NCBI GenBank assembly: GCA_963804995.1
Contig: CAWDSK010000001.1
Location: 608,001 to 672,000 of the forward strand
DNA: 64,000 bases
Reading direction: 5' to 3'
DNA from: an uncultured Acidobacteriota bacterium
GTDB lineage: Bacteria; Acidobacteriota; Terriglobia; UBA7540
The notes beneath the pieces are model-generated. The model did no database searches. It was not told the DNA's origin and saw only the letters and a program-made list of their open reading frames with translations. Every line of letters begins with the position of its first letter. Position 1 is the first letter of the stretch. The translations under genes and the position numbers were made by a program. This document shows, piece after piece, positions 9,963-57,913 of the stretch.

Positions 9963-9978
9963 AAATGCCCCCTACGCT

Positions 9979-10008: not shown

Positions 10009-10012
10009 GCTT

Positions 10013-41496: not shown

Positions 41497-41817
41497 GGTT
41501 CCTCCTGAGGAAGGCGTATCAATTAAGGTTGCGCTGCATGGGCTGTGCACTTCGTATTACCCAGCAGCGTTAGAGAAGGTCTTGCTTAAGAAATAAGAAG
41601 TCCGACGCTAAAGGGACACATTGGAACATCCCGATGAAGTGAGGGGAACTACAAACCTTCGGATGGTAATTTGGGGACATCGAACGGCGAGAAACTAGGC
41701 TCGAATGGTTCAGACAAATTGTTCATTATAAAGGACTTGCGACATTTTGTCCGAACTGCTCTCCGGCCGCTTGACACTACTCCCTCTATCCAAAATCGAC
41801 TCGCGGGCAGACGATAA

Positions 41818-42228
41818 CTATTTTCTGAACAGGTTCTCGAAGGCCTGGCGAGCATCCAGCGGTCGGGAGGAAGAGGTCTCACGTTCCACGGTGGTGCGCG
41901 GCGAGTAGAAGCTGCATTGGTTGCGAGAATCCTTTTTAGGGAGGCGCGCGCTGATGGGCTGCGTACACTCGTAGCGGCTGGAAGTATCAAAGTAGGCGCA
42001 TTGCTTGCAGCTATGCAATTCAAAGCCGCAGCGCGGACACTTGCCCGTGAAATCAATGTCAGGCGGCAACAAAGCGGCGCAGGAACCACAGCGCACCACT
42101 TCGCGCTTGCCGGGCAGCTTCGGAGTCCGCGGCCCGAAGGTTTCAGGTTTCTTCGCGGGTCTGGACTCGGAGCGTTCGCGGTCGCCCCCCGAGTCCATAT
42201 ACCCCCGCTGTTTATACTTTCTCTCCAT
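41818..42228 (-). CDS. Hypothetical zinc-ribbon protein
   Basis: CGSC, CPRC, CKQC motifs; AGGAG RBS. Confidence 0.75.
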   Translation of the reverse strand: MERKYKQRGYMDSGGDRERSESRPAKKPETFGPRTPKLPGKREVVRCGSCAALLPPDIDFTGKCPRCGFELHSCKQCAYFDTSSRYECTQPISARLPKKDSRNQCSFYSPRTTVERETSSSRPLDARQAFENLFRK

Positions 42229-42342
42229 CAAAACTCCTTAGGAATTGGCAGCTTTATTTTCGTTCGTTGGATTGCTGATACTCTTATCATACGCCGCTCG
42301 TTCGCTCCACGCCAGCAGTAAAAAGCGTATTAGTAGTTTGAC

Positions 42343-42413
42343 GTAGCGGCGAGTTTACCCCGCCATCGTACGTTGAGATAAATCCACCCATGGCGGGGTA
42401 AACCCGCCGCTAC
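42343..42413. repeat. REP doublet (same family as 17679 and 29117)
   Basis: GTAGCGGCGAGTTTACCCCGCCAT...ATGGCGGGGTAAACCCGCCGCTAC. Confidence 0.8.
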
Positions 42414-42483
42414 ACCAAATTGAACCCGTACCGTAAAAAGACCCTGGTTTGCGGCGTGGTGTTAAAGCGGAAACCGCTCCCGC

Positions 42484-43455
42484 CTAGTATCCGAGGGTCT
42501 TCCGGACAAACTCGCGGCTGATCTTCCAATCGTCGCGCAGGGGCCGCGTGAGCTGGAAGCCCTTCTCGTGTGCGAGCTCGATCACGGGGTCGCCCGTAAA
42601 CGGAATCGCGTGCAGGGCCTGGGCGATGCCCACGTAATCCATGCTCCCCTCGCCCACGGCTTCGGACCAGGTGCCATCCGCTTTCTGATCGCGGATGTGC
42701 ATAAAGACGATTTGCTTGCCGAAGCGATGAATGAAGTCCACGGGATTAACTCCGCCCCGCACCAGCCAGTTGAGGTCCGGCCCCAATTTGACGTCGGGGA
42801 TGCGGGCCAGCGTGCCCTCCAGATCGTGCATGCCGTTTTCGACTTCGTAGGTATGATTGTGGAGGTTTAGAACCACACCGTGTGCCTTGCCGAAGGCGAT
42901 GATTTTGCGCAGGATCTCCGCTTGCGCGTCAAGCTGCTCCGGCGTCTTGGGTGCGTGGGCTTGGCCGACTGACGTTCCCAGGGTACGCCCTCCCAGTTGA
43001 GCGACGCGCGTAATGACCGTCTCGGCCTTTTCCAGGATTTCGCCGTGCTTCGAGCTGTCCCACATATTGGCCCCGAACGACGTGCCGAGGATCGGCAGGG
43101 AGTATTTGTGGGAAAGCGCGCCGATGCGCTCCACGGCGTCGTCGTGCATCAAGGCTGCATCCATCAGTTCGAAAGCGTCAATCCCCGCGTATTTGAAATC
43201 CGAAAAGATCTGCTCGAGGACCGGCGTGTAGTCGTGATTTGGAATGGGCGCGGCGTAAACCCAGGCGTGGCCACCTACCAGGATCTTTTTGGGTTTGGGA
43301 GCAGCGTTCCGCGCCAATGCCCCATCCGCCGCCAGCACTCCCGCCGCCATCGTCGCGGCAGACTTGAGGAACTCCCGACGGTCGCGACTCTTCAAAGTTT
43401 CGACTTGATCATCATGCTGACTCTTCGCTACTCCAGGATTGCTGGATCTCGGCAT
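42484..43455 (-). CDS. Sugar phosphate isomerase/epimerase (TIM barrel) with Tat signal
   Basis: DRREFLK leader; LHNHTYE, PDLNW, MHIRD, VGEG.MD, IEL. Confidence 0.85.
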   Translation of the reverse strand: MPRSSNPGVAKSQHDDQVETLKSRDRREFLKSAATMAAGVLAADGALARNAAPKPKKILVGGHAWVYAAPIPNHDYTPVLEQIFSDFKYAGIDAFELMDAALMHDDAVERIGALSHKYSLPILGTSFGANMWDSSKHGEILEKAETVITRVAQLGGRTLGTSVGQAHAPKTPEQLDAQAEILRKIIAFGKAHGVVLNLHNHTYEVENGMHDLEGTLARIPDVKLGPDLNWLVRGGVNPVDFIHRFGKQIVFMHIRDQKADGTWSEAVGEGSMDYVGIAQALHAIPFTGDPVIELAHEKGFQLTRPLRDDWKISREFVRKTLGY

Positions 43456-44201
43456 AACTCCTCCTCAGTTTGCAGGGTAGCTGCACTCCTCCACAGTTTG
43501 GGAAAGACGGGTCACTTGGGTCACGGTTCTACGCGGGCCTGATCGAATTTCCGAATCTCCTGCGGGGAGCTTTCTCGAACGCGGCGGTCGTACGTCGAGG
43601 GTGCTTCCTTTAGACCTCCTAAAATAAGGCTAGTTGGGCCCGGATGCAAGTGTTTGTAAGCGAAAACGCAAAAAATCCTGTTGCGACTGGCAGGCAAGGC
43701 GTCGGCTGAGGATCGGATCATCAGGCCGTCGAGCCCTCGGGTGATTTGCGAATGGTGATTGGCGATTCTCGAAGTCGGCATTTGATTCATCTTTTCATCT
43801 GACACCACCGATAACCGATGTGGGGAAGTCTGTCACGGGCGGATTGGGTCGGATGGGGTGAGGGGCTTGCCTGGCGGGTCCTGGCGAACCTCCATTTTCG
43901 TTTCTCGCGACCCTCCATTCCCCAGCATGGAGCGGCGCCGCGAGGCGCTCCGGCCGGGGACGTAGGGCCGAACGGCGTTCGGCCCAGGGCCAGCGCCGCT
44001 GGCCCCTACGGACGTGGCACGGGCATCTGAAGGTGTGAAAAAATACCATTTTCACCGCTGAGACGCTGAGACGCAGAGAAATGACCCTTTGTTTTCAAAC
44101 CTCTGCGCCTCCGCGTCTCCGCGGTGAAAGGCTTGATGGGATTTTTTCACAGCTTCTCTTGCCCGTGATGTTCATGGCCAGGATGGCCATGCCACACCGG
44201 A

Positions 44202-44570
44202 CTACCCGGTTTTGGAGGCTTGCTGGGGGCGGTTGAGCGCGTCGAGGAAACGGGGGAAGGCCTTTGCGTACGTCGCGAGATTGTCCGAAAAGTCCCCGAT
44301 CACTTTGCTCACCACATCGGCCTTGCGGGGGTGATCCCATTCATCGAAGAGGTAATCGTCAATGCGGACAGGAAACAGCACATTCTTATGTTCGCGGTCT
44401 TCCTTCTGCAAGGCGCGCTCGATTTCGCGAATGACGGGCGGGCTTTCGAGCGAATCCTTGGAGCAGATCACCACCAGTTTGTCATAATGCCGGATGGCGG
44501 TGTCAATCTCGCCCCACACCGGCTCGCCCCACTTGGCATTTTCGTCAAACTTCCAACATGTTTCGGCGCC
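44202..44570 (-). pseudogene. 5'-truncated TIR domain
   Basis: CWKFDENAKWGEPVWGEIDTAIRHYDKLVVICSKDSLESPPVIREIERAL...LFPVRIDD; the first TIR strand (FISYS) is missing. Confidence 0.75.
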
Positions 44571-44609
44571 GCCGTTGACAGCGATGCCTTGACGTTTTAA
44601 GATGATTAC

Positions 44610-44831
44610 ATGAATGCAACAATTGCCGCACCGATTGACTGGATCGAGGCTGTTGGAAATCTGCGTTTTCCATCGAAAGCGGACCATCGCCTTCAGGAAC
44701 TCATGGACCGGAACAACGAAGGGCTTTTGCAGGAATCTGAAAGGGAAGAACTGGAGGCATTGGTTGAATTGAGCGAGCGACTGTCGCTCGTCCGCGGCGA
44801 GGCATTGCAGATTCTAGGCAAGCAGCCATAA
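44610..44831 (+). CDS. Small hypothetical protein, putative antitoxin of the HNH gene
   Basis: RLQELMDRNNEGLL...EREELEALVEL; translationally coupled (TAATG) to the HNH gene. Confidence 0.72.
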   Translation: MNATIAAPIDWIEAVGNLRFPSKADHRLQELMDRNNEGLLQESEREELEALVELSERLSLVRGEALQILGKQP

Positions 44832-45244
44832 TGAGCGTCCCGGAAGAACTGTCGCGCACAGTTCGGGCACGCGCTCGCGGGCGGTGCCAATACTGCCTGA
44901 TGCACGAGAGCCTCCAGGGAGCCACTTTCCACGTTGAGCACATCATCCCACAATGCCAAGGCGGGCGCTCCGATTTGCAGAATCTCGTGCTGGCGTGCCC
45001 TGAATGCAATCTGCATAAAGCCAGCAGGATTACGGCGATTGATCCGGCGACTGGTGAGTCTGTGCAATTATTTCATCCCCTCCTGCAACGCTGGTCAGAA
45101 CACTTCCGGTTTAATCGCTATCAGATCGAAGGATTGACCCCCGTGGGCCGCACAACCATAGAAGTGCTAAACCTGAATCACTCCCGCCGTCAGCGCATCC
45201 GCGAAGTTGAGGAAGCGTTTGGTCTCTATCCGCCAGCGCATTGA
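44831..45244 (+). CDS. HNH endonuclease
   Basis: RCQYC...HVEHIIP...GG...NLVLACPECNLHK. Confidence 0.9.
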   Translation: MSVPEELSRTVRARARGRCQYCLMHESLQGATFHVEHIIPQCQGGRSDLQNLVLACPECNLHKASRITAIDPATGESVQLFHPLLQRWSEHFRFNRYQIEGLTPVGRTTIEVLNLNHSRRQRIREVEEAFGLYPPAH

Positions 45245-45365
45245 GGGATTTTCCTTGATGACACTCACCCCGCGTCGGTGATTTGCGTCCAAATGAGGTC
45301 CGCCCCGCTGAGGTCCAGCCCGACAAGGTCCGCGACCAGTTGTCAGTTATCAGTCATCAGTATTC

Positions 45366-45902
45366 AGCGGGTAGCCACGGACAGTGCCTTTCTGTCCGTG
45401 AGCTCTTCCCTTGATGACGAACCTCCAGTCGATTGTGGCCGCACTGATTGCGTTCCCGGTGGGTTCTTGAAGGCATGGGGGTGGAGTGGTAATCTGCGGG
45501 CGTGTCAAACGTCCACCGTCTGCGCCTCACCGACCGCATCTTCTTTGTCAGTATTGGGACCGCTTTGTGCGCGACGAGAAGGAATTCAATGAGCGTCTGG
45601 AGTACATGCACCTGAATCCCGTGAAGAAAGGGCTGGTGAAACGTCGGTAGCCACGGTCAGTGCAGTTCTGACCGTGGGTTCTTCTGGCCGTGGTCGAGTT
45701 ACAACAATTTTGCTTTGGCCAAGGCAACGGTGGCGGCGTGTCCCATCCGGATTGATGACGTGCGATTGCCTTTGGGGTATCGCGCACGATAAAAGCCCAC
45801 GGTCAGAAAAGCGCTGACGGTGGCTACGAGTTAAACTGCGATGGTGATATCACCGATGGAAAAAGGCCGCGGCCAAAAAGGCGCGGACAGTGGCTACCCG
45901 CT
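45366..45902 (+). mobile_element. REP-bounded RAYT remnant, copy E1
   Basis: Ends AGCGGGTAGCCACGG and GTGGCTACCCGCT; encodes MSNVHRLRLTDRIFFV, WDRFVRDEKEFNERLEYMHLNPVKKGLVKR, WSSYNNFAL...LPLGYRA. Confidence 0.82.
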
Positions 45903-46328
45903 TTAAGGAGTGCGCATGCAGTGGGCGAGGCTGGGAGCAATGGCTTGGAAATGCTTGAGGTTCAGGGTGTAAATGTGGCGGGCGCCGCAGTTTGCCGCGC
46001 AGCGCAGCAGCAGCGCATCGTAAATGCGGCCGCCGGTCAGGCCTTGTTCGGAAGCTTGGCGAATGGTGGCGAGATACTCCCGTTCGCTAAGGGAGACAAG
46101 CGTCAACCGTTGGCGGACCTCTTCGACAAACAGGGCCGCCTGTTCGGGAGGAATCAGGGGCTTTACAGGTAAAGCGCTCATCGAGGCGTAGACTTCAGCC
46201 AAGGTGTGAATCCCGCAGGCGGACTGCTCCTTGCTGGCCGCAGCGAAGAGCCGGAGGCTCGATTCGTGATGCGCATGACCGCGCCAGAAGGCGGCAATGA
46301 GAACGGAGGTATCGAAGAAGTCTCTCAT
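45903..46328 (-). CDS. vapC: VapC/PIN toxin
   Basis: FFDTSVLIAA...HTLAEVY...IYDALL...IYTLNLKHF. Confidence 0.9.
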   Translation of the reverse strand: MRDFFDTSVLIAAFWRGHAHHESSLRLFAAASKEQSACGIHTLAEVYASMSALPVKPLIPPEQAALFVEEVRQRLTLVSLSEREYLATIRQASEQGLTGGRIYDALLLRCAANCGARHIYTLNLKHFQAIAPSLAHCMRTP

Positions 46329-46588
46329 CGGGAGAGAGTTGCGCCCAGGCGCTTGGCGCGTTCGAGGTCAATCAGATCGGGAATGGAAGCGTTGCTCGGC
46401 TCGCCTTGATACACCCAGACGCCTCTTTCCTTTTGCAGAAGAGCCTGCGGACGAACCGGGCGCAAGGTAATGCGCTCACCTTCACTTTCCAGCACGAGGG
46501 TGTCGCCGGCTCCGAGCCGCATCTCTTCGCGCAGAGTTTTGGGGAGAACCAGCCGCCCGGCTTTGTTGAGTGAAACCTTGGTCGTCAT
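46325..46588 (-). CDS. AbrB/MazE-family antitoxin
   Basis: LNKAGRLVLPKTLREEMRLGAGD; CCATTCTAGAATGG palindrome just upstream. Confidence 0.88.
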   Translation of the reverse strand: MTTKVSLNKAGRLVLPKTLREEMRLGAGDTLVLESEGERITLRPVRPQALLQKERGVWVYQGEPSNASIPDLIDLERAKRLGATLSR

Positions 46589-46652
46589 AATGCCATTCTA
46601 GAATGGTTTAAACCACATGTAAATGGCGAAACCAAGTACGGCAAGCAATTGT

Positions 46653-47100
46653 AGCGGGTAGCCATCACGGTCACGGCTTTTGTGGCGGTGGGTTCTTCCC
46701 CTGATGACGAAGCACCTAGTGGGCTTTTCCCTTGATGCCCGACTCCTGATCAACGGTGGCGGCCCTGACGGCGTTCCCCGTGGGTGCTCGAAGGCCTCTG
46801 GCCGCGGTGATAATCTGCGGGCGTGTCCAACGTCCGCCGACTCCGCGTGACGGACTGCATTTTCTTTGTCAATGTGAACCTGCGTCCACGCTTCAAGCGA
46901 TTTAACGAATCTGCATGCGGTGAAGAAAGGGCTGGTGAAGCGCCCGGAGGATGGGCGGTGGTCGAGTTACAACAATTTTGCTTTGGACAAGGCAACGGTG
47001 GCGGCGTGTCCCATCCAGATTGATGACGTGCGATTGCCCTTGGGGTATCGCGCATGAGAAAAGCCCACGGTCAGAAAAACGCTGACCGTGGCCGCCCGCT
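46653..47100 (+). mobile_element. REP-bounded RAYT remnant, copy E2
   Basis: MSNVRRLRVTDCIFFVNVNLRPR then deletion to VKKGLVKRPEDGRWSSYNNFALDKATVAACPIQIDDVRLPLGYRA*; terminal hairpin. Confidence 0.82.
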
Positions 47101-47190
47101 TTGTTTTGCGCTATCATCGGAATCATCCGTTTTGTTAAATGGGTTTGGTAACGCTAGAACCACAAAGTACAAGGCTGGAGGGTAAGAATC

Positions 47191-47510
47191 ATGGCTATCG
47201 AGATTACCTTCGCCGATAACGTACCTCTGAAGGACGGTGGGAAACAGTTTATTATCCTTTTAGAGTTTCAAATGAGCAGTCGAGCCGCACAGTCATGCAA
47301 GGCATTACTGAACAAGCGAAATTATGGTCAAACCTGTCACGGGATGGCCTAATCGAAGTCGCAACTGAGTGGCTACGGTTTTGCACTGACAATAGAAGAT
47401 ACGATCCCTTTAATCATCCTGAAATTTCTAACCCAGAGGATGTAACGGTGCCGATCATGGACCATTGGCTCCAACATCACTCATTTTCCCAATTGGCAAC
47501 ACAAAATTAG
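47191..47510 (+). CDS. AT-richer orphan ORF, probably one gene with a -1 indel in a T run near 47250
   Basis: GGAGG RBS then MAIEITFADN; adding one T joins it to MQGITEQAKLW...TQN*. Confidence 0.45.
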
Positions 47511-47701
47511 AGCACTACCCAGGGATGACGATCCTTGCATTCACGGTTTTCACGATTGCTGGCATTTTGCTCTGGATAGGCGACCACCGAGGATGGGCCA
47601 TCCTCTGTTTTTTGATCGCCTTGGTAATCCTGTCAGCTATGCTGCTGTAGCAGAATTGGCACGCACACGCACGCGGACGGGGCAACCCATACAAACACTG
47701 T

Positions 47702-48610
47702 TTAGGATGAACTTTGCGGGGCGGAGAAACCGCCTGCGACCCAAACGAAAACCCGAAGTGTTCCCCAAGGTACCAAGAAACCAACCACGGGATAACAAAA
47801 AGGCAGGAGCAGGCTGGCGATAAAGGCCAATCGGGCCTTGAGTGTCTTCGCTCCCCTGCGTGCCCACTCGCCCGTTGTGAGTTGAATTGAGGAAATCGCG
47901 CCACCCTTGTCTGCATTCACGGTTTGAATGCCATCGGTGCCCTTCACGTCAACCGTGATCTCGGCGGCAGGATCGTCGGCAACGGCTTTATCGTATACGT
48001 TAGCGGCCTGCGCCGGATAATCGGGAATAATTAAAACTGGTGGTGTTTCCAAAGTGTACCCAGGCGGTATCGGCGGCGGTTGCGTAGGCGTTTCCAGCCG
48101 ATAACCGGGCGGTATAGGTGGTATTGCACGCGGTGGAATAGCCGGTTGCGCAGGAGCATCCAGCGTGTAGCCCGGTGGCGGCGGCGGTACAGCGGGCTTT
48201 TCTAGCGTATACCCCGGTGGAAGCGGGGGGACCGGCGGCTTTATCGTGAATTGTTGTGTCTTGTGCTGAGCGAGGTAACTTTTAATCGCCTCAGCAATCT
48301 TATCGTCGGACATGCCACCGGGGAAGGACACGTTGCCCACTCCAGGAACCTCAACGATTTTGTCGGGAGTGATGTATATTTCCTGCTTTCCGCCGATGCT
48401 CGAAAAAGCTACAGGCCCATGCTGCTTGGCTTGGTAGTCTTTTATGGCTGCGTTCACATCGAGCATAACCGGCAAGGCTTGAAGCCGTTCAAATCTCGTA
48501 TGCGAATTCCAGACATTCATGAGATTCCAATAACCAAAGGCTCCGCCCGCGACGCATCCCAGAGCCCCAAGCACGATTCCGACTCGCCGCATTCCTTCTC
48601 TCGTGTTCAT
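47702..48610 (-). CDS. Membrane-anchored protein with Pro-rich PPGYTL repeats
   Basis: N- and C-terminal TM segments; four P(L/P/I)PPGY(T/R)L(E/D) units. Confidence 0.72.
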   Translation of the reverse strand: MNTREGMRRVGIVLGALGCVAGGAFGYWNLMNVWNSHTRFERLQALPVMLDVNAAIKDYQAKQHGPVAFSSIGGKQEIYITPDKIVEVPGVGNVSFPGGMSDDKIAEAIKSYLAQHKTQQFTIKPPVPPLPPGYTLEKPAVPPPPPGYTLDAPAQPAIPPRAIPPIPPGYRLETPTQPPPIPPGYTLETPPVLIIPDYPAQAANVYDKAVADDPAAEITVDVKGTDGIQTVNADKGGAISSIQLTTGEWARRGAKTLKARLAFIASLLLPFCYPVVGFLVPWGTLRVFVWVAGGFSAPQSSS

Positions 48611-48759
48611 TGGTGTTCCTCCGCGCGTCGCTAACCTACTGTATACCTCGACTCGGGGGGGAGGGAAAGGGAAAAAGGCAGGGACGAGCGGCAAAGCAGG
48701 TGCCCCATGCCGGAGGAGCTAGGGAACGGAAGGTTGGCGTATCGTAAGGGAGACTCATG

Positions 48760-48945
48760 GCGGGTAGCGACGGTCAATGCAGTTCTGACCGTAGGTTCTT
48801 CTGGCGGTGGTCGAGTTACAACAATTTTGCTTTGCACAAGGCAACGGTGGCGGCGTGTCCCAACCAGATTGATTACGTGCGATTGCCATTGGGGTATCGC
48901 GCCTGAGAAAAACCCACGGTCAGAAAAACGCTGACCGTGGCCGCT
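48760..48945 (+). mobile_element. Minimal REP-RAYT 3'-end element, copy E3
   Basis: Hairpin, WSSYNNFAL...YRA* coding remnant, hairpin. Confidence 0.82.
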
Positions 48946-49729
48946 AGTCACTCTCAAGGCCCTCTAGCAAAGAGCTTAGCGGTGTCTTGTACTCTTTGTT
49001 CTGTGCCTTAGCATACCGTAGCTGCTGCGCAATAAAAGACAGTTCCTTCTCGAAATCGTCGTCTGATAGTGACGCTGCATGCATAAGCACTAAGCGGCGC
49101 ATAACGATGTCTAGCTGAGCGAACATTTTCTCAAGGTGGCGCACTGCGTACTCTTCAATATCGCCGTTTGGGCATAGTATGCATGTGTCAGTTTTCCCAC
49201 CGCAGCCTAAGCCAGACTTCTTTACCCGCCACAAGACATAGGCGCCAAGATGCCACATCTCCTCAGCGCGCAGTGTTGGGAGGTGCGCCGTGTCTGGGAA
49301 GAATAATCCCAAATAACTATCCGCTAAGACCCCACCCGCGCCGGTGAACTCAACTGTTTTGGCCGGTCTAAGCCTTACCCCACGCGAGCACAACATTTCA
49401 CTTTTGCCGTCACAAGCAAGCCCCATGATTAATGCAAAAGTAGCTGGTTGAGGGTCCAGCTTTATGGCCTTGAAGGTAGTCCGCAGAATTCCTTCTATCT
49501 CAGTTTTTGCTTGTGGTAATGAGCTACAAGAGGGTACTGATTCGGTTATAGACTGCGCGGTCGTCTGTAGGTAGTCCCAGTCGTTAGAGCCGGTGATAAC
49601 CACGGATACTGCATCGCCTGCCCCATACCATATTTTCTTCTGCCTAGACTTTCCTGTATCGTGGGTGAGTTCCCTATCTGCGCATAACACGATACCGTCC
49701 AAGCATTGGAAACCAGCGGCGATGGTCAC
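48944..49729 (-). CDS. Proteasome beta-like Ntn-hydrolase
   Basis: GTG start gives mature T1-IAAGFQCLDGIVLCA-D17-RE...KKI; later TGAGG and GCGGKTD. Confidence 0.68.
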   Translation of the reverse strand: MTIAAGFQCLDGIVLCADRELTHDTGKSRQKKIWYGAGDAVSVVITGSNDWDYLQTTAQSITESVPSCSSLPQAKTEIEGILRTTFKAIKLDPQPATFALIMGLACDGKSEMLCSRGVRLRPAKTVEFTGAGGVLADSYLGLFFPDTAHLPTLRAEEMWHLGAYVLWRVKKSGLGCGGKTDTCILCPNGDIEEYAVRHLEKMFAQLDIVMRRLVLMHAASLSDDDFEKELSFIAQQLRYAKAQNKEYKTPLSSLLEGLESD

Positions 49730-49851
49730 GGATTCTACCTTATCCAGCAACTCACGGGGTTTATGCGGAAGGCGTAAGGAAGGATACGGCGGCTTATGCC
49801 ATATGTCAACTTGCACGGATTCAACATAGTGGTAGAGTTTGATAAATGGGT

Positions 49852-50040
49852 AGCGGGTAGCCGGTCAGTGCAGTTCTGACCGTGGGTTCTTCCGGCGGTG
49901 GTCGAGTTACAACAATTTTGCTTTGGACAAGACAACGGTGGCGGCGTGTCCCATCCAGATTGATCACTTGCGATTGCCCTTGGGGTATCGCGCATGAGAA
50001 AAGCCCACGGTCAGAAAAGCGCTGACCGTGGCTACCCGCT
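49852..50040 (+). mobile_element. Minimal REP-RAYT 3'-end element, copy E4
   Basis: AGCGGGTAGCC...GGCTACCCGCT; close match to E3 and to the 3' parts of E1 and E2. Confidence 0.85.
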
Positions 50041-50275
50041 CGTGCAGCCGTAGCCGAGCAATTAGCGGTCAGCGTGGGAACCATCTGCGGGCAGGCCAAG
50101 GCGGTCGCTAATTAGGTCTGCCGGTTTCTACGGCGCGGGCTAACTCCAAGCCTCGCTAAGGCATGTCGGGTGAAGGCGAATAACCGCCTGAAAAGCCTCG
50201 CCGGGCCTGCAATGACCCACAGCTCAGTGAACTTGCGTGACCTGCGGAGGCGCAGCAGGAATTGGCAAAAGCGGT

Positions 50276-50710
50276 TTAAGTGCCTTTCGCCGCTTTGTCA
50301 ACATCCTTGCGGAGAGTCTTGGCCACGTCTTGAGCACGGAGCTTAACCGTGTCTGCTCCGCCAAACTTGAGATGCGGTTGGAAGTCTTTCTCCCACAAGC
50401 GCAATCCATCAGGAGTCTTCATGACCACAGTCACACGGGCACGAGACTCTTCAGCATAGACACGAACAGACAAGGCGCCTGTCAAAACAGCGTCGGCGGT
50501 CTTTGCATCTTCGGTTGTGGCGAAATGGGCTTTGCCCAGTTCGTCTGCAAGAAGAAGTCGGAAACGCTCGGCTTCATCGCTTTGGCCCATCGAGCCGACA
50601 TAGATTTTCTTGACCGACGCAAGAGACCCGTTTCCTTGAGCGAAGCATGTAGCCGTCACCAACACGCAGAATAGGATGACAGTGGTCATGGCTAGATTTT
50701 TAGTCGTCAT
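50276..50710 (-). CDS. Small secreted hypothetical protein
   Basis: Signal peptide ending TCFA; GGAG RBS. Confidence 0.68.
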   Translation of the reverse strand: MTTKNLAMTTVILFCVLVTATCFAQGNGSLASVKKIYVGSMGQSDEAERFRLLLADELGKAHFATTEDAKTADAVLTGALSVRVYAEESRARVTVVMKTPDGLRLWEKDFQPHLKFGGADTVKLRAQDVAKTLRKDVDKAAKGT

Positions 50711-50849
50711 TGATTTCTCCAGAGCGGGGCTTCGGCATACGGGATTTTCGACAATACGCCTCGAAAGGAAGTCTTTCAACCGGAATTTCCGCTCTCATTT
50801 TCCGGTTGACCGGTAACATACACCTGACCGCCTCTGAAGGCCATGTCCC

Positions 50850-51149
50850 GCGGGCCACGGTCAGCGATTTTCTGACCGTGGGCTTTTCTCATGCCCGATG
50901 CTCCAGCGGCAGGCCGTCAATCGGGATGGAACACGCCGCTACCGTTGCCCTGTTCAAAGTAAGTTTGCTGTAACCCGACCACCGCCAGAAGAACCCACGG
51001 TCAGGACTGGTCGCCGCAGCGACACCGTGGCTACCCCCGCCTCACCCGCCGCTTGCGCGCGGGATTGAACTATTCCTGCCTGCTATGCCTTCGTCATCAA
51101 GGGAAGAACCCCAAGGCCAGAAAAACGCTGACCGCAATGGCTACCCGCT
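50850..51149 (-). mobile_element. Inverted REP-RAYT element, copy E5
   Basis: Reverse complement of the E3/E4 unit (decayed) plus a roughly 70-bp spacer and a third hairpin. Confidence 0.8.
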
Positions 51150-51378
51150 AGGCCGTCACGCCCGGGTACTCAAATACTGGTGTTTGGATAACGCGCGAGG
51201 GCGACTTTCCCTCCCATACGATGTGCTGCAAGCGTTCAGCGGTTTCGGGAGAAAAGTAGCGCTCGCCCGTCTTCAGGGACACCCGTGCGGGCACGTGCTC
51301 GACGATGATGAAACGCCCTTCGATTTCCAGCGTGTAGGTTACGTTCTGCTCAACGAAAGTTTCTTCTGAAACATCCAT
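51148..51378 (-). CDS. YgiT/MqsA-type zinc-finger-like protein (Cys residues absent)
   Basis: VTYTLEIEGRFIIVEHVPARVSLKTGERYFSPET. Confidence 0.8.
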   Translation of the reverse strand: MDVSEETFVEQNVTYTLEIEGRFIIVEHVPARVSLKTGERYFSPETAERLQHIVWEGKSPSRVIQTPVFEYPGVTA

Positions 51379-51379
51379 A

Positions 51380-51691
51380 TCATATTCTCCGTTGCTTGTA
51401 TTCGACCCACTCGTTGGGATCGGGTTCATAGACGGTGACGATCTTCACCAGAGGGCGAGACGGATAGCTGCAATGGACATGAATAGGTCTGTCCATTCTC
51501 GTGAAACCCAGGATCAGGCAACTCGGGCCATACTTATCCTCGGGATAATCCTCAATGACCGCCCCTCTGCTTATCGCTTCCCGAACCTCCTGAACGTTGA
51601 CGTGTCGCAGGATAGCCTGGTCAATTGCGTGTTGCGAAAACTCGAATAAATCTGCTGCAACCTTGGTGCGTATTGCTTCGATCAGTGGCAT
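51380..51691 (-). CDS. DUF4258 family protein (putative toxin)
   Basis: FSQHAI...VIEDYPEDKYGPSCLILG...RPIHVHC...IVTVYEPDP..W. Confidence 0.88.
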   Translation of the reverse strand: MPLIEAIRTKVAADLFEFSQHAIDQAILRHVNVQEVREAISRGAVIEDYPEDKYGPSCLILGFTRMDRPIHVHCSYPSRPLVKIVTVYEPDPNEWVEYKQRRI

Positions 51692-51798
51692 CTCTTGGAT
51701 GATAGTCCAAGGTTAGCAGAGCTGCAACAACGTGAGATACATAAAGCCCAAGGCCAGCCCCTGACTTATATCGAATTCGCGGGTGGCGCCAGCCCGCG

Positions 51799-52084
51799 AG
51801 CGGGTGGCCACGGTCAGCGTTTTTCTGACCGTGGGCTTTTCTCATGCCTGATGCTCCAGCGGCAGGTCGTCAATCTGGATGGAACACGCCGCTATCGTTG
51901 CCCTGTCCAAAGTAAGTTTGCTGTAACTCAACCACCGCCAGAAGAACCCACGGTCAGGACTGCACTGACCGTGGCTACCCCCGCCTCACCCGCCGCTTGC
52001 GCACGGGATTGAACTATTCCTGCCTGCTATGCCTTCGTCATCAAAGGAAGAACCCACGGTCAGAACTGCACTGACTGTGGCCCG
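51799..52084 (-). mobile_element. Inverted REP-RAYT element, copy E6
   Basis: Close direct repeat of E5, including the GCCTCACCCGCCGCTTGCGC...GCCTTCGTCATCAA spacer. Confidence 0.82.
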
Positions 52085-52093
52085 TTGCGGCGC

Positions 52094-52531
52094 TTAGACG
52101 CCTAGGACGCGCAATCCGGCGGCGCGGGCCAATTTGGCTTGATCCCGGTCGAAGGTGTAAAAATCGTCGGCGGCAAGCGCCAGGGCGGAAGCCACGTGGA
52201 GGGCGTCCAGGGCGCGGCAACCCAGGCTGGGCGCGTAGCGCCGGGCGAGTTCGCGCGCCCGCGCCCAGGTTTCCGAGGGCAAATCTTCCCAACGCCAAAT
52301 GCCGGTTTGCAAGTCGTGGGTGAAGTTTTCCTCGATGGCCCGAGCCTCGCGCGCCGTCCACCCCTTGGGGCGAGCCGTAACCGCGTAAACGATGCTGGTG
52401 AATTCCGTCTCGCCGAAGGGCGTAACCATGAACACGGGATGATGGGCCTGGACCAAGGCGATAGCGGGGCGGGAGTTCACATCGCGGCCATACAGCGAGA
52501 CGAGGAAACTGGTGTCCGCGTAGGAATTCAA
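52094..52531 (-). CDS. vapC: VapC/PIN toxin
   Basis: YADTSFLVSLY...RALDALHVASA...FYTFDRDQ. Confidence 0.9.
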   Translation of the reverse strand: MNSYADTSFLVSLYGRDVNSRPAIALVQAHHPVFMVTPFGETEFTSIVYAVTARPKGWTAREARAIEENFTHDLQTGIWRWEDLPSETWARARELARRYAPSLGCRALDALHVASALALAADDFYTFDRDQAKLARAAGLRVLGV

Positions 52532-52770
52532 AGGCGGCTTCGGTCCTTTCGAAGCATCTCGCCGACGTTGAGATCAATGCGCCGGTTGCCAAAGATCTTC
52601 TTCTGGCGCGCGGCGAAATCCGGGTAGGCTTTCCCGGCGGCCGGTTCGGGAATGATGCGGGCGAGAATTTCATGCCGCTTGCGGAGGACCAGGGCCTCGC
52701 CGCGGCGTAGCGGCCCCTCGACCTTGCGCGAGAACTCCTGGCGGACCTCCCGGACGGTTACGTTCTTCAT
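52528..52770 (-). CDS. Phd/YefM-like antitoxin
   Basis: MKNVTVREVRQEFS...GEALV...LARIIP; GTTACAC-N7-GTGTAAC palindrome at 52771-52791. Confidence 0.8.
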   Translation of the reverse strand: MKNVTVREVRQEFSRKVEGPLRRGEALVLRKRHEILARIIPEPAAGKAYPDFAARQKKIFGNRRIDLNVGEMLRKDRSRL

Positions 52771-52808
52771 GTTACACATTTTAGGTGTAACCTGGGGAGG
52801 AAGTCAAT

Positions 52809-52853
52809 AGCGGGTAGCCAGGGTCAGCGTTTTTCTGACCGTGGCTACCCGCT
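52809..52853. repeat. Fused single REP palindrome, copy E7
   Basis: AGCGGGTAGCCAGGGTCAGCGTTTTTCTGACCGTGGCTACCCGCT. Confidence 0.85.
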
Positions 52854-53357
52854 TTGAAATCGGCGGGGCGGCGGCGCGTGCGTTCGAGCAGCACCGAGAA
52901 CAGCTTGGGAGGCAACAGCCCGATATCCTCGGCGAAAAGGCAGGAGAGCAGTCGCATCAAAAAGTGCGCGGCGCGCTGTGGGTCGACGCCCCTCGCTCGC
53001 AAGGAGTCCGCGAGGGTTGCGAACTCAGCGGCGGCCATTTCCGTTACATCTGCCGTGCTGCGATCGGGCCGGAGCCGGGCCGGATCGGTGAACACCGCGC
53101 GGAGAACCTCGATCGGGGGTAGCGTGCAATCGGCGGTTGCTTGGTTCTTCAGCAGGTCGTCAAGCGAGAAGCGATAGACTTGCTTTGCCGTGCCGGTGAA
53201 GTTGGTATGAACCTCGAACCGCGAAATCCTCTGACGCTGGATGCGGCTCGCCCAGCACGTCACAAAGTTCAAGGAAATGCATTTGGGCGCCCGCCCGCTC
53301 CGTGAGGCTAGCGTTTCGCCACTTGTTGACAAAATCAGGTAAGGTCAGCGTTGACAT
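52854..53357 (-). pseudogene. N-terminal remnant of an MmeI-like type IIL restriction-modification enzyme
   Basis: FVNKWRNASLTERAGAQMHFLELCDVLG; deletion; VHTNFT...HFLMRLLSCLFAEDIGLLP; cut at E7. Confidence 0.8.
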
Positions 53358-53544
53358 CTGAGTAGCAGCAAGACTGTAGCATATCGCTTAACGCTGTTGA
53401 ACACTTCTGCCACAATTCCAACTGTGTATTGCATTCGCCGCGTACGACCTGGTCGTCTTGCGAAACTCCACGAAGAAGGATTTGACGACCCAGGCGGAAA
53501 TCATCGGGTCAAACATCAACGCGGCATTGGGCTTCGGAGACCAA

Positions 53545-54030
53545 CTGACAGCGAGCTGAAACAATACCGGGATCATTTGAAGGAAGAGGTCACGGCCCGC
53601 ACGGCGGAGCTGATGGCTGCCGAGGTCGAGCTTCGTCACGCCCAGAAACTCGAATCCGTCGGCAGGCTCGCCTCAGGAATCGCCCACGAAATCAACACCC
53701 CCATTCAGTTCATCGGCGATAACACACGTTTCCTCCAGGAAACCTTTGCGACACTGCGCAAGTTGCTCGAGATGTATGGGACCCTATCAACAAGGCCCTC
53801 GTCAGCACCCTGACTGTGGCGCGCAATGAGCTCAAGTACGTCTCTTTACGACCAAAGAAATCGGGCGAGGGACAGGACAGGGCTTGGCAATTGCCCGCTC
53901 CGTTGTGGTCGATCGGCACGGGGGAACACTCACCTTCGCGAGCGAAGTTGGCAAGGGAACCACTTTCTACGTTCGCCTGCCGCTCGGTGGGGAAGCAAAG
54001 CCCGGGGAAGAAAATCCCGCCTGCAACCCG
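53545..54030 (+). pseudogene. Internally deleted histidine kinase remnant
   Basis: QKLESVGRLASGIAHEINTPIQFIGDN; later FTTKEIGRGTGQGLAIARSVVVDRHGG...GKGTTFYVRLP in another frame. Confidence 0.78.
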
Positions 54031-54923
54031 CTGCAAGGGTGATCATCCTGCATTGAAAAGCCGTGATTACTTGCTGTTTTAGCAGGGAATTTCTGGAGGT
54101 GCGGCTTTTCAATTCCACCCTTTGTCTTTCGATTTTCTATGGCGGTGGCCGCCCCGCAGTACAAGTCCGCAATTTCTTGTTTTTTCTATCTAGGATTCTG
54201 TGCCATTTGTGGTATTACGAAAATAAGAGGGCTTGATCGTTTGGGTGTGGTTCCATCGTGCTGCGCTACCGGCCTTCTCAACCAAACAGGATAGAAATTG
54301 AAATCATGGCCCTCTCCGAGGGGTCGCAGATTCGCCGCGGCGGAAGAGGGTGGACTGCAGCCGGCGTTTTCACCAGCCGGGGCGGGACGGGTGAGGGGTT
54401 ACTTCACCACCCGATGAACGGACCCGCACCCAACCGAAAAACTGGCAGCACCTTTTCTAGTTTGCTTACCGCTTCGCCACGCAACACCACCTGCTTCGAG
54501 ACTCTGATCTCTAGATCGAACGAGAGTTGGCGTGAGAGGCTCAGGCGGAAAATCTGCGCATCCGGCCGGGCGAGGGGGGAAAAGGTTGAGCCCGGCATGG
54601 CGTACTCCCCGACTCTAATCCTGTAGGCCCGCGACTTTTTGTCATTAGTGGGACATGTCCCACATGTTGCTCTCCGCGGGGCATAGCGAGCGAGGTCCCA
54701 CTTAATTCCCCACCCTCACGCGTTTTCTTCCTATGACTTTTGATGAGTGGCTCCGCCGCAATATGCCACAGCATCTGCCCGCGGCAATTGCGCCAGCCTT
54801 CTTGAATCAGTCAACTCATCTTCCCAGATGCCTTCGGTGGCCGCACCTTTACTCGGAGGGATTTCAATCCTCCATCAAAATCCCACCACGGCCCGAACGG
54901 GGTGTGCGACAAATCTGTGTGGG

Positions 54924-56252
54924 TCAGGCCGCGCGGGGGCGACGGTTCTCCCAGTAATCCTCGAATTTGCCGCTCAAGCGATGGCAGCGAAGGGCGATGA
55001 TGGCATTGGCCCCGCGGACCCTCCAGAACATACCGGAGCGCTTCAGCCGAGTGCCGATGAGGGTTTTGCAGCCGGCTTCGACGACCCCGGAACCTACGAA
55101 CAGATGCTGACGCCGAAAGGTCGGATAGCGCATCCGTTGGGCGTTGACGGTAAAATAATCTGCCGCGTGGCGCAAGAGTTCGGCGGCTTCGGGCGTGGCT
55201 GGGAACAGCGAGCGCAAATCGCGCACTAGGGATTCGATCCGCCCGCTCTCCAACTTCTCCTCCCGTTTTCTGGTCCACCTTCGGCGGTGGCGCTCGTCGG
55301 TGGGCCAGAGCTGGCCCGACAGCTCCCATAAGTGCTGTCGGGCATGATAAAGATCCACAATCTGAATGGCTCCCGGAAAGTGCTCGGCGGTGAGGTTCCA
55401 AATCCAAGGAGCACCATCGCCGATCACCACTTTCTTTTGGGCCCGGTTCCAGCCCCGACGATATGCTTCGAGGTAGATGCGCCGCCCAAAAACCTCGGCC
55501 GTTTCGATGCCTCCCGTGTAGGTGGTGGAGCCTTCTTCGCGCGCCGGTCGGCCCCGGGCATCCCGTGTCGTCTGGGCGAAGACACAACCTAATTTCACTT
55601 CCCGCGGGCGCGCTTGCTCGCTCTGTTTCCCCGCTCGACCCTCGGTTTCCGAACTCACCACCGGTACTCCCGTCCCATCCATCTCCACATAGAGTACCGG
55701 AATTTCCGGTCCCCTCACCTGCGGCAAGTTCCGTTGCAGGCCTTGCTGGATCGAGGCTTGTTCCTGGGCAGCAATCTCGGCGCCCAGAGCCTCTGCCTGC
55801 CGTTCCACGGCCTTGGTGGTCACCTCCAACCCGGCCAGCAGTTGCAGTTGTTCTCGACCGAGCGCAAAGGAGGTTTCGCTGCCCACCACCGCCATCATCC
55901 GTCGCACCCCAGGAGAATATTCCGTGCCCTCCACATCCAGTTCCTGATCGCGGGGACTCTGTCCCCGGTGACAGGCCGGACAAACGTAATAGGGACGCTC
56001 GGTCTCGACCCGCCCCAGCACGGTCAGCAGTTGCTTCCGACGCCTGCCGCGGTAGGGTGCCCCCTGACCACAGCCGCAGGGAACTTGGCGAGGGCACTCG
56101 TCCGGGGCGGCCAGCAACTCCTCCAGCACCGCCGCCCCCGCCCGGTGCAAGGCCGCGCGTGTGGCCATCTCGACGGCTTCCAAATCCAGCGTCCCGGACT
56201 TGCGCCGCCCAGCAAAGATCACCGCCAGCAGGGACTCTACTTCTCGCGCCAC
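54924..56252 (-). CDS. ISKra4 family transposase
   Basis: YVEMDGTGVP, IGDGAPWIW, DLYHARQHL, VGSGVVEAGCK...RLKRSGM.W. Confidence 0.92.
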   Translation of the reverse strand: MAREVESLLAVIFAGRRKSGTLDLEAVEMATRAALHRAGAAVLEELLAAPDECPRQVPCGCGQGAPYRGRRRKQLLTVLGRVETERPYYVCPACHRGQSPRDQELDVEGTEYSPGVRRMMAVVGSETSFALGREQLQLLAGLEVTTKAVERQAEALGAEIAAQEQASIQQGLQRNLPQVRGPEIPVLYVEMDGTGVPVVSSETEGRAGKQSEQARPREVKLGCVFAQTTRDARGRPAREEGSTTYTGGIETAEVFGRRIYLEAYRRGWNRAQKKVVIGDGAPWIWNLTAEHFPGAIQIVDLYHARQHLWELSGQLWPTDERHRRRWTRKREEKLESGRIESLVRDLRSLFPATPEAAELLRHAADYFTVNAQRMRYPTFRRQHLFVGSGVVEAGCKTLIGTRLKRSGMFWRVRGANAIIALRCHRLSGKFEDYWENRRPRAA

Positions 56253-56641
56253 TTCCCGCTGAATGGCTTCCGCCGTTTTTTTTCCTGCTCCGCCGCTTCG
56301 GCCTCCTGGGGGAGGGGGCGCTGACGGCAGATTTTTTCGTTCACCTCCACGAAGGCCCGGCGCAGTTGTTGAAACCTGCGGAACTCGGCAATCTGTCGTT
56401 CCGCCTGGTGCCGGGCGGCAGGGCTGGGGAAGGTTTCGCTGACGGTCCGGCCCTGCACCTTGTAAGTGAGCCGGAAGTTAGGGCCGTGGCCGGGATGATG
56501 GGGCTGATGACAGTGACAGTTGGACTTGCCGCAGCGGGCGGTAATGCTGGTGATCGAACCACTGCGGAGGTCACCCAGTTGGGCGATCTGGCGGATCAAC
56601 TCCGCCCGTTGGTTTTCCAGGACGTTAAGGGATTGGGGCAT
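56237..56641 (-). CDS. ISKra4 accessory ORF (DUF6788-like)
   Basis: LRSGSI...RCGKSNCHC...HGP motif upstream of the transposase. Confidence 0.8.
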   Translation of the reverse strand: MPQSLNVLENQRAELIRQIAQLGDLRSGSITSITARCGKSNCHCHQPHHPGHGPNFRLTYKVQGRTVSETFPSPAARHQAERQIAEFRRFQQLRRAFVEVNEKICRQRPLPQEAEAAEQEKKRRKPFSGKWREK

Positions 56642-56825
56642 GTTAAGGCCTCCTCTATCCTAACGTATCATATACGTTAGGATATAAGCGACAAAAAAAG
56701 AGCCAGCCCAGAGCGTTACATTTATGTCGCGCACCCGCCCGAACGTTGCGGATTCCGCGCGTTCACGTTAGAGTAAAAAACTGGCCAATGCTGGCTCCTC
56801 TGAATATCGATGTAGGAACTGATCG

Positions 56826-57743
56826 ATGAGTTTTCGCGACGTTGTTCTGAACCCGTCCATCCCCATGACGCTGTTTGAGGTGGTTCCGCCCGCCGCAGCG
56901 AAGCCCGAAGCATTGGAGTCTTCTCTCCACGAACTACGGCAGGTTCGAGACCTCGTGGACGCGATCAATCTGCCGGAAATCCACGAAGAGGTCCGTCCGG
57001 GTGAGCGCACCGGCAAGTTTCTGGAGCGTGTCGAGCCACGCCAGTTCGGTGCCCGAATCAAGCGCGAACTGGGGATTGACGTGGTCATCAATCGCGTCAC
57101 CGTGCACGATGCGGAACCGGAACGCTGGTTTCGCGAAACGCTGGGCCAGACGGACATCAGCAATTGGGTTCTCGTGGGGGGCGAGTCACGCGAGATTCGC
57201 TATCCAGGCCTGGGCCCCGCCGAAGCCGCTGCTTTGGTGAAGTCCCTCGCGTTGCCGGTTTCACTGGGCGGCATCGCGATTCCCAGCCGGGAGGGTGAGC
57301 CGGAGCGCATTCGCAAGAAGCAAGGTCAGGGGATTGATTTCTTCACCTCACAGGTAATGTTTGACTCAAACGATTTGGTCTGGCTAATTCAGCGCCTCAA
57401 CGGTGTGGAGGCGCGCATCTTCATCAGTTTCGCTCCGGTCAGCCATCAGCGCGATCTGGAATTCCTGCGTTGGCTCGGTGTCGATATCCCTCAGGACCTC
57501 AACCGGTTCCTGCTCGGCTCTGAGTCGGGTGCGGCCGCCTCAGCCGCAACCTGTCTTGATCGTTCGATCAACCTGGCCCAGCGCATCCTGATGGACGTCT
57601 TCGATAATCTGCCCCCTGATCCGCCTCCCCTCGGCCTGAACATTGAGCACATTAACCGTAGGAACTTCGCACCGGCGCTCGCCATGCTTGACCGGCTGGG
57701 AAATCTCTACGCCAACCTGGTGGCCGCGCGCGCCCGCGCCTAA
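56826..57743 (+). CDS. Methylenetetrahydrofolate reductase (mycobacterial-type)
   Basis: FEVVPP, DAINLPEI, LVGGES, GIDFFTSQVMFD, FLRWLGVDIP. Confidence 0.75.
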   Translation: MSFRDVVLNPSIPMTLFEVVPPAAAKPEALESSLHELRQVRDLVDAINLPEIHEEVRPGERTGKFLERVEPRQFGARIKRELGIDVVINRVTVHDAEPERWFRETLGQTDISNWVLVGGESREIRYPGLGPAEAAALVKSLALPVSLGGIAIPSREGEPERIRKKQGQGIDFFTSQVMFDSNDLVWLIQRLNGVEARIFISFAPVSHQRDLEFLRWLGVDIPQDLNRFLLGSESGAAASAATCLDRSINLAQRILMDVFDNLPPDPPPLGLNIEHINRRNFAPALAMLDRLGNLYANLVAARARA

Positions 57744-57753
57744 ATGCAGTGGC

Positions 57754-57845
57754 GCGTGACAAGTGACGAGTGACAAGCCAGAAACACCGCGGGAGGAAAG
57801 ACGAATTCATTTGCTTGTCACTGGTCACTTGTCACTCGCCACTGC
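57754..57845. repeat. Inverted heptamer repeat hairpin
   Basis: gtgacaa gtgacga gtgacaa ... ttgtcac tggtcac ttgtcac tcgccac. Confidence 0.75.
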
Positions 57846-57913
57846 TCTTAGCGTAGAATGCCAACGTGGATCGCAAATCGTCTTGCTCAAGAACCTCCAC
57901 GCGCCCCCGAGGC

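What the first reader, a model, noticed from the sequence alone, without database searches (positions are those of the whole stretch)
45366..53357. Integron-like cassette array built from REP-bounded RAYT remnants alternating with cargo modules
Seen in sequence: seven related elements (E1 45366-45902, E2 46653-47100, E3 48760-48945, E4 49852-50040, E5 50850-51149, E6 51799-52084, E7 52809-52853) carry ends of the type AGCGGGTAGCCACGGTCAG...CTGACCGTGGCTACCCGCT, some degenerate. Between them sit unrelated modules of about 0.6-1.7 kb: abrB-vapC, an orphan plus a Pro-rich protein, a proteasome-like gene, a secreted protein, DUF4258-ygiT and phd-vapC, followed by an MmeI fragment after E7. Almost all cargo is on the minus strand. 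Established: GTAG-hairpin REPs are substrates of RAYT HUH transposases, and integron arrays are likewise rich in TA pairs and orphans. Inference: a RAYT acting in trans captures or shuffles genes between REP ends, giving an attC-free and integrase-free cassette platform. I do not know of this being described.
Basis: partly seen in the sequence, partly recalled or inferred. Interest (0 to 1): 0.88.

Follow-up and report, generated by a model that had tools for sequence, protein, structure and literature searches.

The report
REP-bounded gene cassettes swapped between acidobacteria
Small toxin-antitoxin and defence genes in soil acidobacteria sit between cut-down copies of a single-strand-DNA transposon, and the same gene units recur next to different neighbours in other species, which points to an integron-like gene-swapping platform built without an integrase.

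Summary
The seven elements are real: internally deleted copies of a REP-flanked RAYT transposon, of a family with 143 loci in this Terriglobia genome. The cognate RAYT is intact in 5 of 29 congeners; none was found here. No attC cores and no IntI over cut-off. Arrays of 4-6 elements lie elsewhere in five relatives. Two cargo units of this array recur element-to-element at 99% with other neighbours, and two more share or shift one junction; core genes are 68-82% alike. Element ends join flanks at AG, the reverse complement of the C|T cut site of RAYTs (15 of 40 REP-free homologs; other offsets 0-5). Neighbouring elements are co-oriented (50 of 65). Best reading: RAYT end-joining captures genes, and crossovers inside elements exchange them; RAYT versus RecA for the exchange is untested. 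Against a dedicated system: 44 of 57 PIN genes have no element nearby, and polarity is loose. Gene sequestration by RAYT was proposed in 2012 (PMC3333891); cassette arrays I did not find in print. The scan noted similar arrays on other DNA (e1-6657572).

The parts
45366..45902 (+). E1, internally deleted REPtron: 5' REP, 5' leader, RAYT start and Y-motif/C-terminal pieces, one internal REP, doubled 3' REP
   Evidence: intact relatives
45903..46652 (-). Cassette 1: abrB/mazE-type antitoxin (46325-46588) + PIN/vapC (45903-46328); stop codon abuts the E1 end; promoter-like site 46623-46595
   Evidence: 98.9% over 749 of 749 bp in the G013:C6 array with other neighbours
46653..47100 (+). E2, internally deleted REPtron
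47101..48759 (-). Cassette 2: 71-aa orphan ORF (47295-47510, + strand) and Pro-rich predicted membrane protein (47702-48694, - strand)
   Evidence: no family; only partial homology in 1 of 28 congeners, without elements
48760..48945 (+). E3, 186-bp mini-element (REP, last RAYT codons, inverted REP with degenerate foot)
48946..49851 (-). Cassette 3: proteasome-subunit-like (Ntn) protein, ORF 48944-49816; its TAG stop overlaps the E3 end; promoter-like site 49809-49781
49852..50040 (+). E4, 189-bp mini-element folding into one long hairpin (REP doublet)
50041..50849 (-). Cassette 4: small predicted secreted protein (50276-50779); the same DNA is joined to an element end at another AG, about 190 bp closer to the gene, in L345
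50850..51149 (-). E5, inverted element of the array-enriched E5/E6 subfamily
51150..51798 (-). Cassette 5: DUF4258 (51380-51691) + YgiT-type finger (51148-51429); TAG stop overlaps the E5 end
   Evidence: 96.8% in G006:C600 with the same junction to an E6-like element but another cargo beyond
51799..52084 (-). E6, inverted element with internal REP
52085..52808 (-). Cassette 6: 83-aa antitoxin-like ORF (52528-52779) + PIN/vapC (52094-52531); promoter-like -35 box starts at 52807, next to E7
   Evidence: 99.0% over 723 of 724 bp in the L292 array with other neighbours; REP-free homologs at 79-93% in five congeners
52809..52853 (.). E7, 45-bp double-foot REP (two ends fused across one hairpin)
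   Evidence: term from PMC6006769
52854..53357 (-). 5' fragment of an MmeI-type gene cut at the E7 end; the uninterrupted homolog in G013:C10 has CT at this position
44561..45365 (+). Small ORF (44610-44831) + HNH gene (44831-45244) left of E1; accessory module, element-bounded on one side only
   Evidence: REP-free homologs in relatives

Best explanation
The array is a stack of accessory-gene cassettes built by a mobile REP/RAYT family of Terriglobia. Step 1 (shown): a 630-730-bp REPtron (REP - rayt - inverted REP) copies itself and decays by internal deletion into non-autonomous elements of 45-540 bp. Step 2 (junction signature shown, enzyme inferred): on single-stranded DNA the RAYT cuts C|T three bases outside the inverted foot (CTAC-CCG-C|T) and joins that end to another C|T; the two ends are joined independently, so each event deletes or captures neighbouring DNA and leaves a gene, often with its promoter and trimmed to its stop codon, between two elements. 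Step 3 (outcome shown, enzyme open): cargo plus its two attached element ends is exchanged by crossovers within the similar, mostly co-oriented element bodies and travels between species, giving arrays of 4-7 elements with different orders at different loci. RAYT strand exchange and RecA recombination both fit; I put them at about 45:55. Step 4 (inferred): toxin-antitoxin cargo is kept because its loss is costly. In this genome the array probably cannot capture new cargo now, because no intact cognate RAYT was found.
For: Intact 169-172-aa cognate RAYT with the same ends, NF047646 over cut-off, like 4ER8 at E 1.6e-10; two copies at 97-98% with unrelated flanks in each of two genomes (L182/L183, L185/L186). 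Conservation of 351 outer ends stops at AG, 71% and 75%. Identity to REP-free homologs is 0.76-1.0 up to that AG and 0.24 after it; 16 of 25 homologs have AG there, background 5.5%; with the last 8 nt left out of the query, 15 of 40 against 0-5 at other offsets. C|T cleavage and joining are documented for TnpA-REP (PMC8266576 passages; PMC3333891). In 0 of 17 such junctions does the far flank continue the homolog; no plain empty site for 118 complete elements. Five independent cassette families recur element-to-element at 87-99% among 144 spacers. Around the E6-type element: DUF4258|phd-vapC here, DUF4258|EEP in G006, orphan|EEP in G001, PIN_3|phd-vapC in L292, each cargo keeping its own end variant. 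Elements differ more than the cargo they flank: 8/750 v 20/448, 7/724 v 25/286, 17/832 v 13/293. Co-orientation 50 of 65. PIN genes within 800 bp of an element 13 of 57, ABC and response-regulator genes 5 of 127, p 2e-4. 19 of 45 spacers in relatives carry TA-type genes, 6 more nuclease or restriction genes.
Against: No intact cognate RAYT found in G000 or in the array carriers G013, G005, G001, G006, G017 (73-97% complete); intact RAYT genes mostly stand alone, not at the head of arrays. 72 of 143 elements in G000 are solitary and 44 of 57 PIN genes have none nearby. phd-vapC and abrB-vapC also occur without elements in 5 and 2 congeners. 25 of 40 junctions lack the AG in the homolog; two further MmeI junctions are not clean. 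REP-free homologs need not be the true pre-insertion alleles. Pairs in one array and related genomes are not independent, and 68 pairs had no orientation call. Lower constraint on non-coding DNA could explain part of the element-versus-cargo divergence. No close strain, raw reads or circles were available.
Confidence: 0.62

Rival explanations
1. A dedicated integron analogue: the RAYT alone excises cargo-plus-element single-strand circles between the C|T sites of successive elements and re-integrates them at another element, so arrays grow and reorder enzymatically.
For: Co-oriented runs; shared blocks end at the element's terminal C or CT; in vitro strand exchange between iREP sites and a circle model in PMC3333891; a 2.1-kb unit in L292 flanked by direct repeats of an element.
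Against: Elements beside shared cargo are more diverged than the cargo, as expected for crossovers inside them; no RAYT fixed beside arrays; mixed cargo orientation; no circle seen. This is a narrower form of the best explanation, not exclusive of steps 1-2.
Confidence: 0.3
2. Plain colonisation: elements insert one by one into tolerant, TA-rich variable regions; cargo moves by other routes and sharing reflects transfer of larger island pieces.
For: Genome-wide family, half solitary; most PIN genes without elements; REP-free homologs whose likeness ends near the same place, explained by the promoter's -35 box; some elements lie beside ABC and regulator genes.
Against: Exact element-to-element units with different neighbours on both sides; co-orientation; no simple insertion found; the same cargo joined at two different AG sites.
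Confidence: 0.15
3. An integron or CALIN whose attC sites were overlooked.
For: Cassette size and TA-rich content resemble integron arrays (own knowledge); an earlier scan note found such a case on other DNA (e1-1079689).
Against: No RYYYAAC...GTTRRRY core pair 41-127 nt apart on either strand of 44500-53400; no TIGR02249 match over cut-off in the genome; repeats are RAYT fragments.
Confidence: 0.02

Closest known systems
REPtron / TnpA-REP (RAYT) with REPs, BIMEs and REPINs (E. coli, Pseudomonas, Stenotrophomonas; PMC3333891, PMC8266576, PMC3116915, passages read)
   Same: GTAG foot plus hairpin, inverted REP pair around the gene, HUH and Y motifs, WQ and R residues, C|T at the ends, non-autonomous REP doublets; PMC3333891 already proposes sequestration of flanking genes (codA-cynR).
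   Different: This REPtron duplicates as a unit (E. coli's does not appear to, per PMC3333891); doublets are deleted transposons holding rayt fragments; clusters are spaced by whole genes of 0.5-2.7 kb, not short linkers; units move between species.
Integron cassette arrays / CALINs (own knowledge)
   Same: Small TA, defence and orphan cargo between repeated single-strand-folding sites; units shared across arrays in different order.
   Different: No IntI, attI or attC; sites are 45-540-bp transposon remnants; orientation only partly uniform; several cassettes carry promoter-like sites; no enzyme gene at the head.
pdif (XerC/D) modules of Acinetobacter plasmids (PMC6449649, listing and start of abstract seen)
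   Same: Integrase-free modules between repeated sites, with TA genes, recombined by an enzyme encoded elsewhere.
   Different: Chromosomal; sites are REP doublets, not 28-bp Xer sites; mostly direct, not alternating, orientation.
IS91/ISCR one-ended gene capture and MITE-flanked units such as IMU (PMC3333891 section 25; PMC3184786 passages)
   Same: HUH-type capture of adjacent genes from one end; non-autonomous ends mobilising cargo in trans.
   Different: Y1 RAYT rather than Y2 rolling-circle or DDE transposase; repeated captures stacked into arrays.
TIRtrons / TIRYTs, including acidobacterial ones (PMC3733652 passages)
   Same: RAYT-like gene between inverted repeats that form a repeat family.
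   Different: Ends here are true GTAG-hairpin REPs; cargo arrays are not described in the passages read.

Membership tests
REP / REPIN-type elements of a RAYT | GTAG tetranucleotide at the foot of a hairpin | tested here: met
   GTAG + CCACGGTCAG-n7-CTGACCGTGG
REP / REPIN-type elements of a RAYT | Multi-copy, extragenic, mostly inverted doublets | tested here: met
   143 loci in G000; 118 two-footed elements in the fetched set
REP / REPIN-type elements of a RAYT | Cognate RAYT gene flanked by the same REPs, with HUH and catalytic Y | tested here: met
   In congeners: (5 of 29 genomes intact)
REP / REPIN-type elements of a RAYT | Intact cognate RAYT in the same genome | tested here: not met
   Only fragments; best full-length match 41-42%, with other ends; assembly 92% complete
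REP / REPIN-type elements of a RAYT | Cleavage and joining at C|T | tested here: inconclusive
   Genomic signature present; biochemistry not testable
Domesticated single-copy RAYT (PMC5581495) | One copy per genome, no recent duplicates | tested here: not met
   97-98% identical whole-element pairs with unrelated flanks in two genomes
Integron / CALIN | attC sites (RYYYAAC...GTTRRRY, folded bottom strand) | tested here: not met
   0 core pairs; consensus scan only, IntegronFinder not available
Integron / CALIN | Integron integrase IntI | tested here: not met
   12 tyrosine-recombinase matches, none over the TIGR02249 cut-off
Integron / CALIN | Co-oriented cassettes exchanged as units | tested here: inconclusive
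   Units exchanged; elements co-oriented in 50 of 65 pairs; cargo strands mixed in relatives
Integron / CALIN | Excision as circles by the recombinase | not testable with these tools
   Only assembled contigs of other populations were available
pdif modules | 28-bp XerC/XerD sites around modules | not tested
   No dif-site scan run; the separating repeats are RAYT remnants

The most novel reading that the evidence does not exclude
A horizontally spreading, IS-like RAYT builds and reorders TA/defence cassette arrays by itself, capturing genes at C|T and excising and integrating cargo-plus-element single-strand circles: a second, independent invention of the integron on HUH chemistry, and a concrete host-level function for RAYTs.
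Probability: 0.3. Interest if true: 0.92.

Novelty: new variant of a known kind. Interest (0 to 1): 0.72.

Why it matters
What RAYTs do for their hosts, and how REPs move in vivo, are open questions (PMC5581495, PMC8266576, passages read). Here a REP/RAYT family leaves a readable in-vivo footprint (ends joined at C|T, each end separately), copies itself whole, and is tied to arrays of toxin-antitoxin and defence genes shared at 95-99% among species whose core genes are 68-82% alike. That makes the 2012 gene-sequestration proposal testable with a defined 172-aa enzyme and defined ends. Such arrays are invisible to integron finders, so they may be an overlooked store of defence genes in soil Acidobacteriota.

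Tried and rejected
Integron/CALIN: rejected. Structured RNA: no Rfam match in 40000-58000. Orthologous empty island: left and right core flanks are not adjacent in the relatives listed, so no empty site could be read. Simple insertion sites: none for 118 complete elements; hits there were duplicate loci or other tandem repeats. Strict convergent polarity: 11 convergent v 4 divergent switches, p 0.12, not supported. A general rule that ends abut stop codons or -35 boxes: 32 of 335 ends have an ORF stop within 12 nt against 5% of random AG sites, and 7 of 335 have GTCAA; weak, and the control is not intergenic; the promoter scan found 5 sites against 4.1 in shuffles. Low-GC island: flanks of elements average 57.9% against 58.5%. 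Sequencing runs: none holds more than 24% of the words, all contigs; loose ends pile at element ends and joints are confounded by the repeat, so not used as evidence. Viral contigs: 2 matches, not studied. L277 repeats the G001:C25 array at 99.9-100% in the same order and was not counted as shuffling. One search used a wrong loop length and was redone. In one search, rows without a near-perfect foot, and repeats of one junction, were dropped before the count of 29; 4 of 29 lacked AG on the element side. One search used a looser motif and includes some non-family sites; one of its 15 AG rows (C3:93100) has a homolog that is itself next to a hairpin. A HigA-like label for the ORF cut by the REPtron in L183 got no Pfam hit and is not used. 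No structure or complex prediction was run. Supplements were not opened; Supplementary Figure S7 of PMC3333891 (sequestered genes) bears on novelty.
Full report
Observation. The region 45366-52853 holds seven related elements at the stated places. Six-frame reading shows pieces of one RAYT gene: start and end in E1 and E2, the last ~34 codons in E3 and E4, a diverged inverted form in E5 and E6, none in E7. The window is G000:C1:608001-672000 of a 7.55-Mb, 92% complete genome. Titles of records holding the related transposase name Terriglobia or Acidobacteriota in most rows. The end motif has 6, 38, 80 and 125 hits at 0-3 mismatches; a profile gives 313 hits and none in the reversed genome. Merged, there are 143 element loci: 72 single, 20 pairs, 8 triples and this group of seven; 39 gaps are 3 kb or less against 7.1 expected. 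Cargo labels are checked under the observation check.

The parent element. G000 has 14 Y1 transposase matches with other repeat families, but no intact cognate gene: the best full-length match is 41-42% identical. Congeners carry it: a 169-172-aa protein between the same inverted REPs, over the NF047646 cut-off and alignable to 4ER8 across HUH, WQ and Y motifs; intact in 5 of 29 genomes. Two genomes each hold two whole copies at 97.8% and 96.8% with unrelated flanks, so this REPtron behaves like an insertion sequence, unlike the single-copy RAYTs of PMC5581495 (passages) and the E. coli REPtron of PMC3333891 (passages). E7 matches the 'double foot' REP that PMC6006769 explains by central deletion of an inverted dimer (passages). 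No attC core pair and no IntI over cut-off were found.

Junctions. Across 351 outer ends, conservation stops at AG five and four bases before GTAG. That is C|T on the other strand, the site at which TnpA-REP cuts and joins (PMC8266576 passages; PMC3333891). Where a flank has a REP-free homolog, identity holds to that AG and then falls to 0.24; 16 of 25 homologs have AG there. With the last 8 nt kept out of the query the count is 15 of 40, against 0-5 at other offsets; 25 of 40 do not show it. Two cases concern this array: the MmeI gene is cut at E7 where the uninterrupted G013 copy has CT, and cassette 4 is joined to an element at a second AG about 190 bp closer to its gene in L345. In none of 17 junctions does the far flank continue the homolog, and 118 complete elements gave no plain empty site. 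The two ends therefore seem to be joined separately, which deletes or captures neighbours; the caveat is that these homologs need not be true pre-insertion alleles.

Cassette exchange. I fetched 120 regions around elements from congeners, chosen from search hits and not a full census, plus loci. Arrays of 4-6 elements occur in G013, G005, G043, G001 (two), G017, G006 and contig L292. Among 144 spacers, eight families match end to end; three are one array seen twice, five are informative: abrB-vapC (98.9%, G000 and G013), phd-vapC (99.0%, G000 and L292), DUF4160-DUF2442 (95-97%, three genomes), a ParE pair (98%, G013 and G001) and a PemK-type unit (87%). Core genes beside the island are 68-82% identical in the same genus and are not adjacent there. 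Neighbours beyond the shared units differ. Around the E6-type element four combinations are seen: DUF4258 with phd-vapC here, DUF4258 with an EEP nuclease in G006, an orphan with the EEP nuclease in G001, PIN_3 with phd-vapC in L292; each cargo keeps its own end variant. The MmeI fragment with the same junction heads another set of cargo in G022. Elements flanking shared cargo differ two to nine times more than the cargo, which fits crossovers inside element bodies but could partly reflect weaker constraint. Adjacent elements are co-oriented in 50 of 65 pairs, 68 more being uncalled, and the E5/E6 subfamily is enriched in clusters, 24 of 34 against 67 of 158; pairs and genomes are not independent.

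Cargo bias. In 45 spacers from relatives, 19 carry TA-type genes and 6 more nuclease or restriction genes; shared cassettes count more than once, and counting DUF433 and DUF4160/DUF2442 as TA-type is own knowledge. In G000, 13 of 57 PIN genes lie within 800 bp of an element against 5 of 127 ABC and response-regulator genes. The bias is real but partial: 44 PIN genes have no element of this family, and phd-vapC and abrB-vapC also occur REP-free in five and two congeners.

Mechanism. Shown: origin from a mobile REPtron, AG/CT junction signature, element-bounded units re-neighboured across species, no integron parts. Inferred: RAYT makes the junctions by single-strand end transfer. Open: whether RAYT or RecA performs the exchange, and whether anything is active in G000. 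I give 0.62 to the combined capture-and-exchange account, 0.3 to its narrower RAYT-only form, 0.15 to plain colonisation.

Known and new. Section 25 of PMC3333891, read whole, proposes circle excision, integration near resident BIMEs and sequestration of flanking genes, with codA-cynR as example; its Supplementary Figure S7 was not seen. Tandem REPIN clusters are described in PMC3116915 (passages), TIRtrons in PMC3733652 (passages), MITE-flanked units in PMC3184786 (passages), pdif modules in PMC6449649 (listing only). Searches for REP/RAYT cassette arrays with TA cargo returned no such description in the open library, which lacks most subscription papers. Earlier notes of this scan report a patchwork joined at similar mini-elements in this genome (e1-3887304) and shuffled units between RAYT-linked repeats in Syntrophales (e1-6657572); I did not test them and they are not support. 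Verdict: real, a new variant of the REP/RAYT kind that works like an integron array without being one; interest 0.72.

Noticed in passing
L182/L183 and L185/L186 (about 9920-10555 in each): Whole REPtrons duplicated at 97-98% within one genome, with unrelated flanks: an IS-like RAYT, against the usual single-copy rule.
   Followed up: partly
L292:2384-4669: A 2.1-kb unit (element, PIN_3 module, element, phd-vapC) is flanked by direct repeats of a truncated element plus the same following sequence: tandem amplification, integrated circle or assembly artefact.
   Followed up: no
L026:7121-15849 (G005:C8): A six-element array sits between genes that read like trmD and rpsP (names recalled, from no call), i.e. 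inside a core ribosomal cluster.
   Followed up: no
   Followed up: no
L028:8147-8879 and window 45646-45680: A REP is inserted inside the rayt gene just after the catalytic tyrosine region; in G020 it keeps the frame open (182 aa). The 186-bp mini-element equals this internal REP to the 3' end.
   Followed up: partly
L199, L200, L203, L206, L208, L209, L196: Sister RAYTs at 56-62% identity have GTAGCCACG feet with different hairpin arms; some records are titled Acidimicrobiia. Not checked for arrays.
   Followed up: no
window 53397-53813 and 54924-56641: A broken histidine-kinase piece and an ISKra4-family transposase with a DUF6788 gene close the island on the right; a TIR-domain remnant that is multi-copy in the genus lies at 44202-44687.
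   Followed up: no
window 48944-49816: Proteasome-subunit-like orphan family concentrated in Acidobacteriota in the atlas, carried as a cassette; function unknown, possibly defence.
   Followed up: partly
window 25176 region (G000:C1:633119-633194): A lone element of the same family lies 20 kb left of the array, next to another transposase-like ORF (25285-26538).
   Followed up: no
L348, L349: Two viral contigs carry an exact REP end; a possible route of transfer.
   Followed up: no
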